Part shown: piece after piece, positions 9,761 to 64,000 of the stretch | Layout of the letters: each line of letters begins with the position of its first letter | Numbering within the stretch: position 1 is the first letter of the stretch | From: Chloroflexota bacterium | GTDB taxonomy: Bacteria > Chloroflexota > Dehalococcoidia > Lucifugimonadales > UBA3495 | NCBI GenBank assembly: GCA_028875655.1 | Contig: JAPPCX010000112.1 | Span: 141-64,140, forward strand | Reading direction: 5' to 3' | DNA: 64,000 nt | Notes under the pieces: model-generated | Told to the model about the DNA's origin: nothing | What the model saw: only the letters and a program-made list of their open reading frames with translations | The model's database searches: none | Translations under genes and position numbers: made by a program

Positions 9761-10579
9761 TCATCCCGGGCCTGTCGAAGGCTGAGCCGAGCCGCTGTAC
9801 TGCGTCACAAACCGGCGGATCGCCTCGAAATACTGTCGCATTCCCATAAACATGAGGTCGTTGTGTCCCGCGCCGGGGATTACCAGCAGGTGCTTGTCCT
9901 CGGTCTGGATGCCGTCGTGCATCGCCACTGCGTCCTGCACCGGCGCCAGTTCGTCCAGCTCACCGTGGATCACCAGAGTGGGGATGTTGATGGAGTGCGC
10001 CTTGGCGTGGTAGGCGTCCTCCAGCGCCTGCGCGTCCGATTCATCCAGCCCTATGGTGAACCGCGCCAGGTTAGGCCGGCCGCTCTCGATGATCACGCCG
10101 GCGATACGGTCCGCCGCCTTGACCGCCAGCTCAAAGGCCGAGTGGCGACCCATGGAGCGGCCCATCACGTACAGCGGCCCGGTGAATCCCGATTTCTCCA
10201 GCGTTTCCCGCAGCCAGTCCAGTACCTTGCGCGCGTCCGACAGCATCAGCGTGAAGGCCGGCGACCCGTCGGACACGCCGTAGCCACGGTAGTCCGCCAC
10301 GAAGAAATTCACGCCAATCCGGTTGTAGAACGGCGCGATGCCGTCGTAGCCGGCCGCCGTCTCGCCGTTGCCGTAGAAGAACAGCACAGTCGGGCTTTCG
10401 ATCCCCACCGGGAAGAAGCGGGCGGACAACCGCACGTCGTCGTCCACGATGATTCCGCAATCAATCGCGCCCTCCGGAGTCTCCGTCCAGTGCCGCTGTG
10501 GGTAGAACGACATCCCCGACGCCCGGGGGTTGTCCAGCGCGGAATAGTCAACAGCGGCCATCGGTAGTAACCCCTTCAT
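9761..10579 (-). CDS. alpha/beta hydrolase
   Basis: Nucleophile elbow GRSMGRH, then HGELDELAP and GAGHNDL. The last ~9 codons and the stop lie in a REP copy (9756-9787). Confidence 0.75.
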   Translation of the reverse strand: MKGLLPMAAVDYSALDNPRASGMSFYPQRHWTETPEGAIDCGIIVDDDVRLSARFFPVGIESPTVLFFYGNGETAAGYDGIAPFYNRIGVNFFVADYRGYGVSDGSPAFTLMLSDARKVLDWLRETLEKSGFTGPLYVMGRSMGRHSAFELAVKAADRIAGVIIESGRPNLARFTIGLDESDAQALEDAYHAKAHSINIPTLVIHGELDELAPVQDAVAMHDGIQTEDKHLLVIPGAGHNDLMFMGMRQYFEAIRRFVTQYSGSAQPSTGPG

Positions 10580-42360: not shown

Positions 42361-42714
42361 TGACACTTCCACCTTGCCCCTACTCACCATCCATCAGTAC
42401 CATTTAACTACCCAACCGCCCAACTCCATCCCTCCGCCCGAATCCAAATGGGCCGCAACCCCGAAATCCTGATTCTGACAATCACGAACCATCCCCAAAC
42501 ACCGCTCCCCCAAACCCTCTCAAATGCCCGCCAAAAGCCCCAATATCACTTCCAAAACCGGCTCAATTCTCCCCCATTCACCCCCACGTCCCACCCCCTG
42601 CCCCTACTCAAATAACCGGAAGTGAGCGGAAATGAGCGGGTTTCCGCAAAAACCCCCGCCATCCCAATGAAATCCCTGATCCTGCCCATCCTGTTCATCC
42701 ATGCAAATAACTCC
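42361..42714 (-). repeat. ~350-bp mosaic repeat, copy C (C/A-rich strand on +)
   Basis: The reverse complement aligns with copies A and B end to end, including the 26-nt GCATGGATGAACAGGATGGGCAGGAT motif (42679-42704). Confidence 0.85.
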
Positions 42715-42787
42715 CTACCCCGGTTTAGACCGCCAGTCGAAAGCCCCTGGCGAGAACCGCGCCCATGATGACGACGCGGCCCGTCTA

Positions 42788-42796
42788 TGCTAGAAT
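42788..42796 (+). promoter_or_regulatory. extended -10 (TGCTAGAAT) upstream of the DsbA-like gene
   Basis: Lies 59 nt before the ATG at 42855, so transcription would include the upstream ATG and the TGA codon. Confidence 0.35.
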
Positions 42797-42854
42797 CGGC
42801 AGACCGTGCGCAGGTAGCCGAACTACCGCGCGACCAGATTACGGAGGTGGCACC

Positions 42855-43487
42855 ATGGCCGACACCGATTTCAAGGTATATTACGACTTTCGTTGACCCT
42901 TCGTGTACAACGCTGCCATGTGGTGGGCGAAAGTACGCGAGAACACTGACCACGAAATCAACGTGGAACTCAAGCCGTTCTCGCTGGTCCAGGTAAATCA
43001 CGACAACAACAACGACGACGGGTTCAAGTATTGGGAACAGGACGACTCGGACAACACCCTGCTCGAGTTGCGCGCCGGCCTCGCCGCCGAACGCCAGGGC
43101 GAAGAAATCTTCGACCGGTTCTTCATCAACCTGCTGAAGGCCCGCCACGAAGACCGTATCGACCTCACCGACGCCGACGCCATCAACGCTGTGGCCGAGG
43201 CTTCGGGCGTTGACATGGGCCGGTTCGCGGAAGACCTGGCCGACCCCGACATCCTCCGGGAAATCGGCGAGAGCCACACCGAAGCCGTGGAAATTCACGG
43301 CGCGTTCGGGGTGCCGCTGTACGTCTTCCCCAACAACAACGCCGCCTTCGTCAAGATGTTCATACCCACCGACGAAGAAGCCGGGCCCATCTACGACAAC
43401 CTGGTCGAGATGATGGCCGACCACCGGCACGTGGGCGAGGTCAAGCGCCCGTCCCCGCCGTGGCCGTATGAGGGTGTCCGCGGCTAA
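42855..43487 (+). CDS. DsbA-like thioredoxin-fold protein, candidate selenoprotein (TGA at 42894-42896 read as Sec)
   Basis: ATG at 42855 with GGAGGTG 6 nt upstream. Translation MADTDFKVYYDFR-TGA-PFVYNAAMWW... continues in frame into track ORF 42903..43487. The TGA sits where DsbA-like proteins have the first Cys of CPxC (..YYD..CPFCY..). C-terminal GVPLYVF is typical of the fold. Confidence 0.6.
42900..42941 (+). promoter_or_regulatory. candidate bacterial SECIS hairpin
   Basis: UUCGUGUAC/GUACGCGAG forms a 9-bp lower stem (with G-U pairs). Above it are an AA/AAA internal loop, an upper stem CGCU-GCC/GGU-G-GGCG with a bulged G, and an apical loop AUGU that starts 25 nt from the U of UGA. Confidence 0.45.
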
Positions 43488-43506
43488 ATCAGCGGAACCT
43501 CCAACA

Positions 43507-44226
43507 ATGAGCGCCGCCGGCGGGAGCCGTCCCGCCGCAGAACTCGAACAAGCCCTGGGCCTGGACTTCCGGGACCGGGGCTTGTTGCGTCAGGCGCTCA
43601 CGCACCGCTCCTACGTCAACGAGACCAGCGGCAACGACGCCGATTCCTACGAGCGGCTGGAGTTCCTGGGAGATGTCGTCGTTCGCCTCATCGTCAGCGA
43701 GGAGCTGTACCACCGCCTGCCCGGCTGCGACGAGGGCGGCCTAACGCGCCGCTGGACGGCGCTCCTGAGCCAGCGGGCTTTGGCAACCGTCGCCGAACGC
43801 CTGGGCGTCGCGCCATACCTGCTGCTGGGGCGAGGGTTCGAATCCACGGGCGGCCGCCACAGCGAGGCGGTGCTCGGCGACGTCATGGAATCCTTGATCG
43901 CCGCCATCTATCTGGACGCCGGCTATGAAGCAACCAGGCGATTCGTACTGTCAGCGATGTCCGCTGAGATCGAAACGGCTTGCCGAACCGACTGGAGGCC
44001 GGACAACCCCAAGGCCGAGCTGCAGGAGCTGCTCCAGGGACATGGCAAGCCCACGCCCGCTTATCAAGTCGTTGACTCATCCGGCCCGGCGCACCAGCCG
44101 CTTTTCACGGTTGAAGTCATGGTAGATGAGGAAACCCTGGGGTCGGGTTCGGGAGGCAGCAAAAGCGCCGCCGAAACCGAAGCGGCGCGGGCGGCTCTCT
44201 CCAAGCTCCGTGCCTGCACTGGCTGA
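43507..44226 (+). CDS. rnc: ribonuclease III
   Basis: ALTHRSYVNE, ERLEFLGDVV (RNase III signature), C-terminal dsRBD ...PKAELQELLQ...GPAHQPLFTVEV...GSGGSKSAAE. Confidence 0.92.
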   Translation: MSAAGGSRPAAELEQALGLDFRDRGLLRQALTHRSYVNETSGNDADSYERLEFLGDVVVRLIVSEELYHRLPGCDEGGLTRRWTALLSQRALATVAERLGVAPYLLLGRGFESTGGRHSEAVLGDVMESLIAAIYLDAGYEATRRFVLSAMSAEIETACRTDWRPDNPKAELQELLQGHGKPTPAYQVVDSSGPAHQPLFTVEVMVDEETLGSGSGGSKSAAETEAARAALSKLRACTG

Positions 44227-44366
44227 GTAGGGCTATAATGAAACCGAAAGCGGTGTCACCGTCGCCGAGCCTTCGCCGTTCACGTCCTCTTCCGAACCCG
44301 CGCAAACTAATCGTTACACCCACTCGACAACCCTTCTTCCAAACGCCAACGGCGACCCATCCGATT

Positions 44367-45326
44367 ATGTTTTCCATATTCAAACGCAACCGAGAAAAGG
44401 TGAACCGCGAACAGACCGACGCCGGCGTGAAGCGCAGCCGCGACAGCTGGTTCGGGCGCATCCGCAACCTGTTTGCTTCCCGTGAGCTCGACGATTCCGT
44501 ATGGGACGAGATTGAGGAAATCCTGATCTCAGCCGACGTGAGCGTAGAGACCACCATGACCGTGCTGGATGACTTGCGCGACGACGTTCGCGCCGGACGC
44601 ATCACCGACGGCGAAGGCGCGTTCTCCCGGCTGAAGAACCTTCTGGCCGCCGAGCTGGCCGCGGACGACGACCCCGACGTGTGGCTGGATGACGACGGGA
44701 TAGCCGCTCCCTACGTGATACTCGTGTGCGGCGTGAACGGCGTCGGGAAAACCACCAGCATCGCCAAGCTGGCTCACCATTTCACCGGCGCGGGCAAGAA
44801 GGTAATGCTGGGCGCGGCCGACACCTTCCGCGCCGCCGCCGAAGAGCAACTGGAAATTTTGGGCGAACGGGTCGGCGTCGATGTTATCAGCCACCAGCAC
44901 GGCGCCGATCCCGGAGCGGTGGCCTATGACTCGTGGCAGGCCGCGCGGGCCCGGGGCGCGGATATCCTGATCGTCGATACTGCCGGCCGACTGCACACGC
45001 GAAACAACCTGATGGACGAACTGCGCAAGGTTCGCCGGGTCATCAACAGGCTGGACGACGCGGCCCCGCACCAGGTGCTGCTGACGCTGGACGCCACCAC
45101 CGGGCACAACGGGCTGACCCAGGCCCGGGCGTTCACCGAGGCCGTGGGATGCACCGGTATCTTCCTGGCCAAGCTGGACGGCACCGCGCGCGGCGGCATC
45201 GTGCTGTCCATACGCCGGGAGCTGGGCGTGCCGATCCTGTTCATCGGCACCGGCGAAGGGTTGGGCGACATCGCGCCCTTCGACCCGGACGAGTTCGTGG
45301 ACGCGATGCTCACCCCGGCGGCCTGA
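44367..45326 (+). CDS. ftsY: signal recognition particle receptor FtsY
   Basis: [44 protein letters not shown]. The ATG at 44367 (MFSIFKR) is preferred. TATAAT at 44234-44239. Confidence 0.92.
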
Positions 45327-63497: not shown

Positions 63498-63541
63498 GAA
63501 TACGTCACCTTACCGTATCGAATACGTCACTTTACCGTTTC
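63498..63541 (+). promoter_or_regulatory. tandem 22-bp direct repeats in a divergent promoter region
   Basis: GAATACGTCACCTTACCGTATC / GAATACGTCACTTTACCGTTTC, followed by the TACCGTTTCCGGTA palindrome. CATAAT lies just upstream. Confidence 0.5.
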
Positions 63542-63559
63542 CGGTAGTTTTCGACCAAC

Positions 63560-64000
63560 GTGATCGCATCGTTAGCCAACAGCCCGGCCTTCAAGTGGTA
63601 TGCCTTCGCCGCCATGGCGGTGGGCACCTTCGCGTCCGTGGTGGACCACGGCAGCGTGGGGGTGGCGCTGCCCACCATAGCCACCCATTTTCATGCCCCA
63701 ATCCCCAGCGTACAGTGGTTGATGATCGGGTTCGCAATGACCATCATCGCCCTGCTGCTGCCCATGGGCCGTCTGGCGGACCTGATCGGCTCGAAGCGGG
63801 TGTACCTGATGGGTTCGGTGGTGATCATCGCCGGGTCCATTGCCGCCGGAACCTCGACTGATCTGGCGGTCCTGATAGTGGCGCGGATCCTGCAGGGCGC
63901 CGGCGCGGCCATGACCCAGGGCACCGGCATGGCCATCATCATCGGAGCGTTCCCGCCGGGTGAACGGGGCAAGGCCATCGGTCTGATTATGACCATGGTG
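63560..64000 (+). CDS. MFS transporter (DHA2-like), 3' end beyond window edge
   Basis: Own translation from the GTG at 63560 (the in-frame TAG at 63545 closes the frame upstream): VIASLANSPAFKWYAFAAMAVGTFASVVDHGSVGVALPTIA...GRLADLIGSKRVY...RILQGAGAAM. Open to position 64000. Confidence 0.75.
   Translation, partial: MIASLANSPAFKWYAFAAMAVGTFASVVDHGSVGVALPTIATHFHAPIPSVQWLMIGFAMTIIALLLPMGRLADLIGSKRVYLMGSVVIIAGSIAAGTSTDLAVLIVARILQGAGAAMTQGTGMAIIIGAFPPGERGKAIGLIMTMV

What the first reader, a model, noticed from the sequence alone, without database searches (positions are those of the whole stretch)
42855..43487. Candidate selenoprotein: DsbA-like gene with TGA at the active-site Cys position and a SECIS-like hairpin
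The ORF track starts this gene at a GTG (42903) that has no SD. Thirteen codons upstream of the TGA, in the same frame, is an ATG (42855) with GGAGGTG 6 nt upstream and a TGCTAGAAT -10 box at 42788. The only interruption is TGA at 42894-42896. The translation MADTDFKVYYDFR[TGA]PFVYNA places the TGA where DsbA/FrnE-type proteins carry the first Cys of ..YD..CP(F/W)CY... This gives a U-P-F-V monoselenol variant. Immediately downstream (42900-42941) the mRNA can fold into a 9-bp stem, an internal loop, an upper stem with a bulged G, and an AUGU apical loop. The loop starts 25 nt from the U of UGA, inside the spacing reported for bacterial SECIS elements, whose apical loops contain GU. Thioredoxin-fold and DsbA-like selenoproteins are known from marine metagenomes. 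This instance would be missed by standard ORF calling.
Basis: partly seen in the sequence, partly recalled or inferred. Interest (0 to 1): 0.7.

Follow-up and report, generated by a model that had tools for sequence, protein, structure and literature searches.

The report
Selenocysteine DsbA-like gene in SAR202
A thioredoxin-fold (DsbA-like) gene of a marine SAR202/Dehalococcoidia bacterium almost certainly encodes selenocysteine at its catalytic position through an in-frame TGA followed by a conserved RNA hairpin; this kind of selenoprotein is already known, but gene callers truncate this subfamily in more than 100 genomes.

Summary
The gene runs from ATG 42855 to TAA 43487, 210 codons, with TGA at codon 14 (42894-42896).

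- **Conservation of the TGA:** All 104 related TGA-form loci I recovered have TGA in this column. They are all Dehalococcoidia/Chloroflexota, with 46-99% protein identity. The 13 upstream codons are conserved as protein, and every distinct upstream sequence has a Shine-Dalgarno site and an in-frame start.
- **Cys orthologues:** Rare Cys-forms, one shown in the same gene order, read YDFR-C-PFVYNA.
- **RNA element:** Synonymous sites are frozen from codon -1 to about +11. A 7-bp hairpin with one bulge and an (A/G)UGU loop (42911-42929) is kept in all 37 distinct sequences, with compensatory changes.
- **TGA elsewhere:** The neighbouring genes use TGA as an ordinary stop.
- **Sec machinery:** None lies in the window. 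A published COG table gives SelA, SelB and SelD for the SAR202 MAG that carries a 90%-identical copy. BSepDB lists Dehalococcoidia MAGs with 46-49 selenoproteins.
- **The protein:** It is a cytoplasmic, Cys-free, U-P-F-V DsbA-like enzyme. Its nearest structure is D. radiodurans DR2335, which has no known function.

DsbA-like selenoproteins are known, including a "DxxUP" form. I rate this a new member of a known kind, of modest interest.

The parts
42768..42796 (+). Promoter-like site: -35 ATGACG, 17-nt spacer, extended -10 TGcTAGAAT (42788-42796)
   Evidence: It is the only sigma-70-like site in 42400-43700. A TGnTAn(A/C)AT box is present in 77 of 100 distinct upstream regions of the orthologues. 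The match is to a consensus only; no transcription start has been mapped.
42844..42850 (+). Shine-Dalgarno GGAGGTG, with 6 nt between GGAGG and the ATG
   Evidence: a GGAGG-type SD precedes the in-frame start in 100 of 100 distinct orthologous upstream sequences.
42855..43487 (+). Full coding sequence of the DsbA-like protein: 210 codons plus TAA, with Sec at codon 14
   Evidence: Translation is. Pfam DSBA PF01323 covers residues 7-162, E = 9e-15. Full-length 210-aa Cys homologues exist. Upstream codons show synonymous variation with a conserved protein sequence, for example GAC/GAT 55:29 and TTT/TTC 50:34.
42891..42893 (+). Arg codon -1, invariant CGT, placing a U directly 5' of UGA
   Evidence: CGT occurs in 84 of 84 TGA-form sequences although Arg has six codons. 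Three of four distinct Cys-forms use CGC. I infer a constraint from the UGA context.
42894..42896 (+). In-frame TGA, inferred to be a selenocysteine codon (residue 14)
   Evidence: All 104 TGA-form loci have TGA in this column, and five Cys-form loci have TGT or TGC there. In the model of the Cys orthologue this column is the N-cap of helix alpha1, the nucleophile position of the thioredoxin fold.
42911..42929 (+). Conserved SECIS-like core hairpin: 5' arm 42911-42917, loop AUGU 42918-42921, 3' arm 42922-42929 with a bulged G at 42925
   Evidence: On 37 distinct sequences 95.8% of cells are paired. Fourteen cells in three pairs show changes on both sides, and none of 500 shuffles reaches the covariation score or the percentage paired. 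All slid registers give 65% or less paired. Columns 18/36 are C-G in 26 sequences and U-A in 11, never mixed, and in most U-A sequences both changes are synonymous. Synonymous sites are suppressed over codons +1 to +11.
42900..42941 (+). Lower 9-bp stem (42900-42908 with 42933-42941), present in this window but not conserved
   Evidence: It folds in the window. Across the orthologues 82% of cells are paired, no better than shuffles, and pairs 10-45 and 12-43 are broken in 23 and 17 of 37 sequences. It may add stability in this lineage but is not a defining part of the element.
43485..43487 (+). TAA stop of the gene

Best explanation
Bases 42855-43487 form one gene for a 210-residue cytoplasmic DsbA-like thioredoxin-fold protein. 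Its catalytic residue 14 is selenocysteine, encoded by UGA 42894-42896.

**Recoding (inferred mechanism).** When a ribosome reaches the UGA, the hairpin 14 nt downstream (42911-42929) is bound by SelB carrying GTP and Sec-tRNA(Sec). The hairpin has 7 bp, one 3' bulge and an (A/G)UGU loop. Binding outcompetes release factor 2, and Sec is inserted. The invariant CGU codon just before the UGA probably tunes this competition.

**The protein.** Sec sits at the N-cap of helix alpha1 in the motif Y-D-F-R-U-P-F-V. There is no resolving Cys, and the window's protein has no Cys at all. The chemistry must therefore be monoselenol:
- The selenolate attacks a disulfide, mixed-disulfide or other electrophilic substrate.
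- The resulting Se-S (or Se-OH) intermediate is resolved by an external thiol, either a low-molecular-weight thiol or a Trx/Grx-type partner.

This resembles the monothiol route of mycoredoxin-type and Rv2466c-type cytoplasmic DsbA-like reductases.

**Shown here:**
- one continuous gene, with a conserved TGA in a Cys/Sec column;
- a conserved, covarying hairpin;
- the fold and the position of the residue in it.

**Taken from the literature:**
- the presence of SelA, SelB and SelD in the lineage.

**Inferred:**
- actual Sec insertion;
- SelB binding to the hairpin;
- the substrate and the recycling thiol.
For: **TGA conservation.** TGA is in the same column in all 86 sequences of the first set, that is the window plus 85 loci. 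Eighty of these loci are one genome per species from GTDB, all Dehalococcoidia or Chloroflexota. It is also there in 18 more metagenome and ENA loci, down to 46% protein identity. One database protein with W at this position is in fact a TGA.

**Cys forms.** Five loci have TGT or TGC there. L088 has the identical gene order.

**The upstream segment is translated.** The protein sequence is conserved while synonymous sites vary. An SD and a start codon are present in 100 of 100 distinct upstream sequences. The Pfam domain spans the TGA.

**RNA element.**
- Synonymous entropy is 0-0.84 bits at four- and six-fold degenerate codons from -1 to +11, against 1.1-1.8 bits further downstream.
- The hairpin shows covariation.
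- Every TGA-form folds the same hairpin, with a mean MFE of -9.3 kcal/mol. In the Cys-forms the basal pairs are broken by GCG to GAR and GCC to ACC changes.

**No reassignment of TGA.** The neighbouring rnc and ftsY genes, and many other high-GC3 ORFs in the window, end in TGA.

**Sec machinery and lineage.** Bin87 (MPNC), the source of L038, has SelA, SelB and SelD in the COG table of Slaby et al. 2017, as do four other SAR202 bins. BSepDB places Dehalococcoidia MAGs among the ten most selenoprotein-rich bacteria.

**Fold.** The AlphaFold2 model of the Cys orthologue has pLDDT 91, with residue 14 at the start of helix 15-29. The best PDB matches are DR2335 (TM 0.79) and Rv2466c (TM about 0.69).
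Against: - No selA, selB, selD or tRNA-Sec lies in the window or in about 1.6 Mb of syntenic flanks. The genome of this window itself could not be scanned.
- There is no experimental evidence of selenium in any member of this subfamily.
- The window's loop AUGU has its G at the third position, so rule (ii) of the published bSECIS consensus is not strictly met.
- No Rfam SECIS model matches.
- The single-sequence fold is not significant, z = -1.73.
- The loop letters U-G-U belong to Met/Val-Trp codons, so their invariance may be due to the protein.
- The 11 U-A cases at pair 18-36 may derive from one or a few substitution events in one clade, so the number of independent compensatory events is small.
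- The proposed monoselenol mechanism and external thiol rest on analogy only. The nearest structural relative, DR2335, has no known function.
Confidence: 0.88

Rival explanations
1. The TGA is a true stop. The real protein starts downstream, at GTG 42903 or ATG 42918, as gene callers annotate it, and lacks strand beta1 and the active-site residue.
For: Public gene calls for this subfamily are 188-197 aa and start at MW... or (M/V)YNAA.... A mechanical ORF starts at GTG 42903.
Against: - The downstream starts have no SD, whereas a GGAGG plus ATG/GTG lies 13 codons upstream of the TGA in 95 of 100 distinct sequences.
- The 13 upstream codons are conserved as protein with synonymous variation.
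- The Pfam DSBA domain begins at residue 7.
- A truncated product would lose beta1 and the nucleophile of a thioredoxin fold.
- Cys orthologues are full length.
Confidence: 0.03
2. The UGA is read through, but as a standard amino acid. This could be Trp, Cys, Arg or Gly by near-cognate or suppressor decoding, with the hairpin stimulating readthrough rather than binding SelB.
For: Hairpin-stimulated stop-codon readthrough exists in other systems (my own knowledge). The Sec machinery was not found in the sequence I could scan. The loop is not strictly canonical for a bSECIS.
Against: - The column is Cys in the orthologues, at the redox nucleophile position. That is the signature of Sec/Cys pairs.
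- The lineage is reported to encode SelA, SelB and SelD and to be rich in selenoproteins.
- TGA is an ordinary stop in neighbouring genes.
- The position and size of the hairpin fit three of the four published bSECIS constraints.
Confidence: 0.05
3. The gene is a pseudogene, or the TGA is a sequencing or assembly error in a TGT/TGC Cys codon.
For: Cys-form relatives differ from TGA by a single base.
Against: The same TGA occurs in 104 independent loci from many assemblies, samples and species. The frame is otherwise intact and shows strong purifying selection.
Confidence: 0.01

Closest known systems
DsbA-like selenoprotein family, form 1 (Sargasso Sea selenoproteome, Zhang, Fomenko & Gladyshev 2005, PMC1088965; PF01323/COG2761, motif UxxC)
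   Same: It has the same Pfam domain, and Sec replaces the first Cys of the thioredoxin-fold active site. The UGA is followed by a stem-loop inside the coding region. It is of marine origin.
   Different: Form 1 is UxxC, with a resolving Cys. This family is U-P-F-V, and the window's protein has no Cys at all.
DsbA-like selenoprotein form 2, motif DxxUP (Table in Zhang et al. 2026, PMC13188914, citing Peng et al. [quoted passage not shown]
   Same: The motif fits exactly, D-F-R-U-P, and the Pfam family is the same, PF01323.
   Different: I could not retrieve the exemplar sequence, so homology at subfamily level is untested. Its name implies a crotonase part, and the window's protein has no such domain. 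DxxSP and DxxCP are general motifs of cytoplasmic DsbA/GST-kappa/HCCA-isomerase-type proteins (my own knowledge), so a motif match alone does not prove the same subfamily.
DR2335 of Deinococcus radiodurans (PDB 7DK9; C24S mutant 7DKA), a single-Cys cytoplasmic DsbA-like protein
   Same: It is the best sequence match (E = 2e-15) and the best fold match (TM 0.79) in the PDB. Its motif is YFDFL-C-PYAW, with one Cys in the same column and no resolving Cys. It has no signal peptide.
   Different: It shares only 26-28% identity and has Cys rather than Sec. Its function is unknown, so it does not tell us the substrate.
Rv2466c / NCgl2478 (DsbA-Mrx1 cluster, mycothiol-dependent reductases; PF22234)
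   Same: It is a cytoplasmic DsbA-like fold, TM about 0.69 and E about 1e-4. It is a model for thiol-cofactor-dependent reduction by a DsbA-like protein.
   Different: Those enzymes have CP(W/F)C. The Pfam Rv2466c-like score is 26.2 bits, just under the 27-bit cut-off. No mycothiol pathway is shown for SAR202.
Bacterial SECIS consensus (bSECISearch model as summarised in PMC13188914, section 5) and the E. coli fdhF SECIS
   Same: It is a stem-loop inside the coding sequence just 3' of the UGA. The loop is 4 nt and the upper stem 7 bp. There are 21 nt between the UGA and the loop. A GU lies in the loop and the stem has a single-nucleotide bulge.
   Different: In the AUGU variants, including the window, the G is at loop position 3, not position 1 or 2. 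The bulge is on the 3' side. No Rfam SECIS model matches.

Membership tests
Bacterial selenoprotein gene (Sec-UGA recoding) | An in-frame UGA conserved among orthologues within an otherwise intact, conserved reading frame | tested here: met
   All 104 TGA-form loci have TGA in this column, and the flanks are conserved as protein.
Bacterial selenoprotein gene (Sec-UGA recoding) | Cys-containing homologues align Cys with the UGA | tested here: met
   Ten full-length protein clusters and five loci with TGT or TGC read YDFR-C-PFVYNA. L088 has the same gene order.
Bacterial selenoprotein gene (Sec-UGA recoding) | A bSECIS stem-loop downstream of the UGA that meets the consensus: loop of 3-9 nt, upper stem of 4-16 bp, G in the first two loop positions, 16-37 nt from UGA to loop, MFE at or below -7.5 kcal/mol | tested here: inconclusive
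   - Loop of 4 nt, stem of 7 bp and spacing of 21 nt are all met.
- The G rule is met by the GUGU variants but not by AUGU, which is the window's loop.
- The MFE is -18.4 kcal/mol with the window's lower stem, -6.6 for the window's mini-hairpin alone, and -9.3 on average across the family.
- Covariation and synonymous-site suppression support a functional RNA element.
Bacterial selenoprotein gene (Sec-UGA recoding) | selA, selB, selD and tRNA-Sec (selC) in the same genome | not testable with these tools
   None lies in the window or in the +/-10 kb flanks of 85 loci. Indirect support comes from SAR202 bin87, which carries L038: a published COG table gives it SelA 3, SelB 1 and SelD 1. Dehalococcoidia MAGs are listed as selenoprotein-rich. 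tRNA-Sec was not assessed anywhere.
Bacterial selenoprotein gene (Sec-UGA recoding) | Selenium demonstrated in the protein, by 75Se labelling or MS | not testable with these tools
   This needs an experiment.
DSBA-like thioredoxin domain (Pfam PF01323) | A profile match above the gathering threshold and a DsbA-type fold, that is a thioredoxin fold with a helical insertion | tested here: met
   The score is 55.3 bits against a cut-off of 25.6. The model has pLDDT 91 with the order beta1, alpha1, beta2, helical insert, beta3-beta4, alpha. PDB matches are DsbA-like proteins.
DSBA-like thioredoxin domain (Pfam PF01323) | A CxxC dithiol active site | tested here: not met
   The motif is U-P-F-V, or C-P-F-V in the Cys forms. 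The window's protein has no other Cys. It therefore works as a monoselenol or monothiol variant, not as a classical dithiol oxidase.
DsbA-like selenoprotein form 1 (UxxC) | A UxxC motif | tested here: not met
   The motif is UPFV, whereas the family is defined as UxxC.
DsbA-like selenoprotein form 2 (DxxUP) | A DxxUP motif in a PF01323 protein | tested here: met
   The motif is D-F-R-U-P, matching the table entry.
DsbA-like selenoprotein form 2 (DxxUP) | Sequence homology at subfamily level to the exemplar MDP6049977.1, described as crotonase/enoyl-CoA hydratase family | not testable with these tools
   The exemplar sequence cannot be retrieved here. No crotonase domain is detected in the window's protein.
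Rv2466c-like mycothiol-dependent reductase (PF22234) | A profile match above the gathering threshold and a CPWC motif | tested here: not met
   The score is 26.2 bits against a cut-off of 27. The motif is UPFV. The fold is similar, TM about 0.69.

The most novel reading that the evidence does not exclude
This is a distinct subfamily not yet described separately: a monoselenol (U-P-F-V), otherwise Cys-free, cytoplasmic DsbA-like enzyme related to DR2335. In this reading the Sec form is the rule and the Cys form the rare exception across SAR202/Dehalococcoidia. The gene keeps a fixed housekeeping neighbourhood (DsbA-like, rnc, ftsY). Its SECIS has a loop (AUGU) that falls outside the standard bSECIS search rule. 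It would then be a widespread marine selenoenzyme with an unknown substrate that standard annotation, and possibly SECIS-based searches, systematically miss.
Probability: 0.3. Interest if true: 0.5.

Novelty: new member of a known kind. Interest (0 to 1): 0.35.

Why it matters
**Annotation.** In every public entry I saw, this gene is called as a 188-197-aa fragment that lacks its catalytic residue. It is named 'hypothetical' or 'DsbA family', and in one case it is translated with Trp at the TGA. No NCBIfam model covers it. Fixing this affects more than 100 Dehalococcoidia species and adds to selenium-demand estimates for SAR202, an abundant group in the deep ocean and in sponges.

**SECIS models.** The family supplies a clean comparative example of a compact SECIS core whose loop departs from the usual search rule. 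That is useful for widening SECIS models.

**Biochemistry.** A DsbA-like enzyme whose only redox residue is one Sec is a tidy system for asking what a monoselenol thioredoxin fold does.

None of this overturns current understanding. DsbA-like selenoproteins and selenoprotein-rich Dehalococcoidia are both already published.

Tried and rejected
Rejected. It is no better than shuffles, and two pairs are broken in 17-23 of 37 sequences.
2. **Rfam.** No family reached the gathering threshold anywhere in the window. A permissive scan of 42780-43020 gave only a sub-threshold 'glutamine riboswitch' hit (17 bits against 35, E = 0.26), which I treat as chance.
3. **Sec machinery by direct search.**
   - ARAGORN on the window and on 60 loci found no tRNA-Sec.
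   - tblastn with E. coli SelA, SelB and SelD against the window and all loci found nothing.
   - These flanks are under 1% of each genome, so the result is uninformative rather than negative.
4. **A second selenoprotein gene in the window.**
   - A first GC3-based scan flagged TGA 63691 on the minus strand. That is the antisense frame of a probable transporter gene and I rejected it.
   - A calibrated codon-usage scan returned only 42894.
5. **Genome-wide TGA reassignment.** Rejected, because neighbouring genes end in TGA.
6. **NCBIfam.** No model hit.
7. **A conserved 5'-UTR hairpin.** Rejected.
   - The window has one at about 42808-42831, but its fold is not significant (z = -0.29).
   - UTR length ranges from 30 to 91 nt between clades, with no common structure.
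8. **A metagenome scan with a Cys-form query, meant to collect Cys-form DNA.** It returned only TGA-forms. I then fetched Cys-form DNA by exact protein look-up.
Full report
**1. The observation**

- GGAGGTG lies at 42844-42850, ATG at 42855 and TGA at 42894-42896. The frame is then uninterrupted to TAA 43485-43487.
- The mechanical ORF list starts the gene at GTG 42903, giving 194 aa.
- TGCTAGAAT (42788-42796) is the extended -10 of the only promoter-like site in 42400-43700.
- The RNA from 42900 to 42941 folds as described, with MFE -18.4 kcal/mol. As a single sequence this is not significant: z = -1.73, and 14 of 200 shuffles fold as well.
- With Cys placed at the TGA, the protein matches Pfam DSBA (PF01323) over residues 7-162, so the match crosses the TGA. 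The score is 55.3 bits against a cut-off of 25.6.
- A codon-usage scan trained on this window finds 42894 to be the only TGA in all 64 kb, on both strands, with coding-like sequence in frame on both sides.

**2. Comparative evidence that the TGA is decoded**

*Protein search.* A search returned two kinds of relatives. Some are full-length 210-aa proteins reading ...YDFR-C-PFVYNA..., with Cys exactly in the TGA column. Many others are 188-197 aa and begin MW... or (M/V)YNAA..., just after that column. One 210-aa entry with W in the column turned out to have TGA in its DNA.

*Genome and metagenome scans.* A scan of one genome per GTDB species returned 80 loci, all Dehalococcoidia or Chloroflexota. 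These are SAR202-type, and many are sponge-derived MAGs.
- Every one of the 80, plus five ENA loci, has TGA in the same column.
- Further loci from ocean metagenomes, and relatives down to 46% identity, do too.
- In total I found 104 TGA-form loci and 5 Cys-form loci with TGT or TGC.
- The Cys-form L088 lies in the same gene order as the TGA-forms: DsbA-like, rnc, ftsY, DUF2298. It is therefore an orthologue.

*Upstream segment.* The 13 codons before the TGA are conserved as protein while synonymous sites vary, for example Asp GAC/GAT 55:29 and Phe TTT/TTC 50:34. All 100 distinct upstream regions carry a GGAGG-type SD and an in-frame ATG (88) or GTG (12). The start is 13 codons before the TGA in 95 of them, and 77 have a TGnTAnAAT box.

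*TGA as a stop.* TGA is an ordinary stop here. The adjacent rnc and ftsY genes, and many other high-GC3 ORFs, end in TGA.

Together these results exclude a pseudogene, a sequencing error, a downstream start and genome-wide reassignment of TGA.

**3. The RNA element**

*Synonymous sites.* Four- and six-fold degenerate codons from -1 to +11 are nearly frozen:
- Arg-1 is CGT in 84 of 84 sequences.
- Ala+7 is GCC in 82 of 82.
- Ala+11 is GCG in 74 of 77.

Their entropies are 0-0.84 bits. Comparable codons further downstream have 1.1-1.8 bits.

*Upper hairpin.* RNAalifold keeps only the upper hairpin. On 37 distinct sequences the hairpin at columns 18-24/29-36 (window 42911-42929) has these properties:
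- 95.8% of cells are paired.
- Fourteen cells in three pairs have changes on both sides.
- None of 500 shuffles reaches the observed pairing or covariation score.
- All slid registers give 65% or less pairing.

Pair 18-36 is C-G in 26 sequences and U-A in 11, never mixed. It arises from AAC to AAT (Asn) together with GCG to GCA (Ala), both synonymous in most U-A sequences. Pair 22-31 goes G-C, G-U, A-U.

*Caveat.* The U-A sequences may form one clade, so the number of independent events is small. The loop letters U-G-U lie in Met/Val-Trp codons, so the protein also constrains them.

It shows 82% pairing, no better than shuffles, and two of its pairs are broken in 17 and 23 of 37 sequences.

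*Cys-forms.* In these the basal pairs are broken by Ala-to-Glu (GCG to GAR) and Ala-to-Thr changes, and RNAfold no longer recovers the hairpin. Codon -1 is CGC in three of four distinct Cys-forms.

*Against the published bSECIS consensus.*
- Loop size (4 nt), stem length (7 bp) and spacing (21 nt between the UGA and the loop) all fit.
- The MFE fits for the window's whole structure.
- The rule 'G in the first two loop positions' is met by the GUGU variants but not by AUGU, the window's loop.
- No Rfam model matches.

**4. Sec machinery**

I found no tRNA-Sec and no SelA, SelB or SelD homologue in the window or in the +/-10 kb flanks of the loci. That is too little of any genome to count as a negative result. 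The literature fills part of the gap.
- Slaby et al. 2017 (PMC5649159) report SelA and SelB in most sponge-symbiont bins.
- In their Table S4, column 16 is bin87. This is the SAR202 MAG MPNC, whose contig MPNC01000001 is my locus L038, with the same TGA gene at 90% protein identity. It has COG1921 SelA = 3, COG3276 SelB = 1 and COG0709 SelD = 1.
- SAR202 bins 90, 16, 22 and 127 are also positive for all three.
- BSepDB (PMC13326102) lists two Dehalococcoidia MAGs, with 49 and 46 selenoprotein genes, among the ten most selenoprotein-rich bacteria. One has the same UUID-style isolate name as many of my loci.
- tRNA-Sec remains untested.

**5. The protein**

*Fold.* An AlphaFold2 model of the Cys orthologue P0018 (62% identical to the window's protein; pLDDT 91, pTM 0.88) shows a DsbA-type thioredoxin fold. 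Residue 14 lies at the N-terminus of helix 15-29, directly after strand 6-10. That is the position of the nucleophilic Cys.

*Localisation and Cys content.* There is no room for a signal peptide, because the first strand begins at residue 6. The protein is therefore cytoplasmic. The window's protein contains no Cys at all, and the motif is U-P-F-V, so there is no resolving Cys.

*Nearest structures.*
- The closest is DR2335 of D. radiodurans (7DK9; C24S mutant 7DKA). It matches at E = 2e-15, TM 0.79 and 26-28% identity, with motif C-P-Y-A.
- DR2335 is described as a predicted cytoplasmic single-Cys DsbA-like protein without functional data.
- Next come Rv2466c-type mycothiol-dependent reductases (TM about 0.69), YjbH, GST kappa and HCCA isomerase.

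*Inference.* I infer, but have not shown, a monoselenol mechanism in which an external thiol resolves the Se-S intermediate. One weak hint supports a redox role. In one Cys-form contig the neighbouring genes encode OsmC-like and glutaredoxin/GST-N-like proteins.

**6. Comparison with what is known, and novelty**

- DsbA-like selenoproteins were described in the Sargasso Sea selenoproteome: nine sequences, COG2761, motif UxxC.
- They rank among the top 20 bacterial selenoprotein families, with 41 organisms.
- The 2026 review lists form 1 (UxxC) and form 2 (DxxUP; exemplar MDP6049977.1, named as a crotonase-family protein).
- The present motif D-F-R-U-P fits form 2 and fails form 1. I could not retrieve the exemplar, and the window's protein has no crotonase domain. 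Identity with form 2 is therefore likely but unproven.
- No NCBIfam model covers the family. Public entries are truncated fragments.

I therefore classify this as a new member of a known kind, possibly already catalogued. It is not a new kind of system.

**7. Verdict**

Two corrections apply: only the upper hairpin is the conserved element, and its loop is not strictly canonical. My confidence that this is a genuine Sec-encoding gene is about 0.88. The substrate and the recycling partner remain unknown. Interest is modest (0.35). The result has real value for annotation and for SECIS models, but it would not surprise a selenoprotein specialist.

Noticed in passing
window 42891-42893; same column in L001-L108: The Arg codon just before the UGA is CGT in 84 of 84 distinct TGA-form sequences, despite six-fold degeneracy and a GC-rich genome. 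Three of four distinct Cys-forms use CGC. This suggests a 5' context requirement (U before UGA) for Sec insertion or against termination.
   Followed up: partly
L043-L049, L051, L053, L055 (about position 10019-10021 in each locus, codon 8 of the gene): One clade has an extra Cys six residues before the Sec (M-A-E-x-D-F-L-C-Y-Y-D-F-R-U), in strand beta1. The window's protein has Val there and no Cys anywhere. This Cys could act as a lineage-specific resolving residue.
   Followed up: no
L005 313-945 (ENA scaffold SANC23-1...83604); protein P0021: A public gene call translated the in-frame TGA as Trp and so produced a full-length 210-aa protein with W at the Sec position. The gene caller evidently used an alternative genetic code on this contig.
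   Followed up: yes
window 42855-45326 and beyond; L001, L088, L089: The gene order DsbA-like, RNase III (rnc), FtsY, DUF2298 membrane protein is conserved from 46% to 99% identical relatives, in both Sec and Cys forms. The upstream neighbours differ between clades.
   Followed up: partly
window 43437-43472 (protein residues 195-206): A C-terminal motif E-V-K-R-P-x-P-P-W-P is nearly invariant across the whole family: E195, K197, R198, P199, P201, P202, W203 and P204 are invariant in alignment A1. Its role is unknown. The end of the AlphaFold2 model is less confident there, with pLDDT 63-82.
   Followed up: no
window 42808-42831 (5' UTR): A bulged 9-bp hairpin (GCGCAGGUAG...CUACCGCGC) lies between the -10 box and the SD. 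Close relatives have hairpins with different sequences there. The fold is not significant (z = -0.29), and clades with 30-nt UTRs lack it.
   Followed up: yes
window 63535-63999, minus strand: An apparent coding-TGA-coding pattern at 63691 on the minus strand is the antisense frame of a plus-strand gene that looks like an MFS-type transporter. It is not a selenoprotein candidate.
   Followed up: yes
L112 982-1799 (JGI Ga0395781_0048171): In one Cys-form contig the DsbA-like gene is followed by OsmC-like and glutaredoxin/GST-N-like genes. This thiol-redox neighbourhood is not seen next to the Sec forms.
   Followed up: no
L004 (ENA ERZ21861969 ctg21671l): A 97%-identical copy sits on a 7.89-Mb contig. 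That is about twice the 3-4.7 Mb of the other complete Dehalococcoidia chromosomes in the hit list. It may be a much larger genome or an assembly chimera.
   Followed up: no
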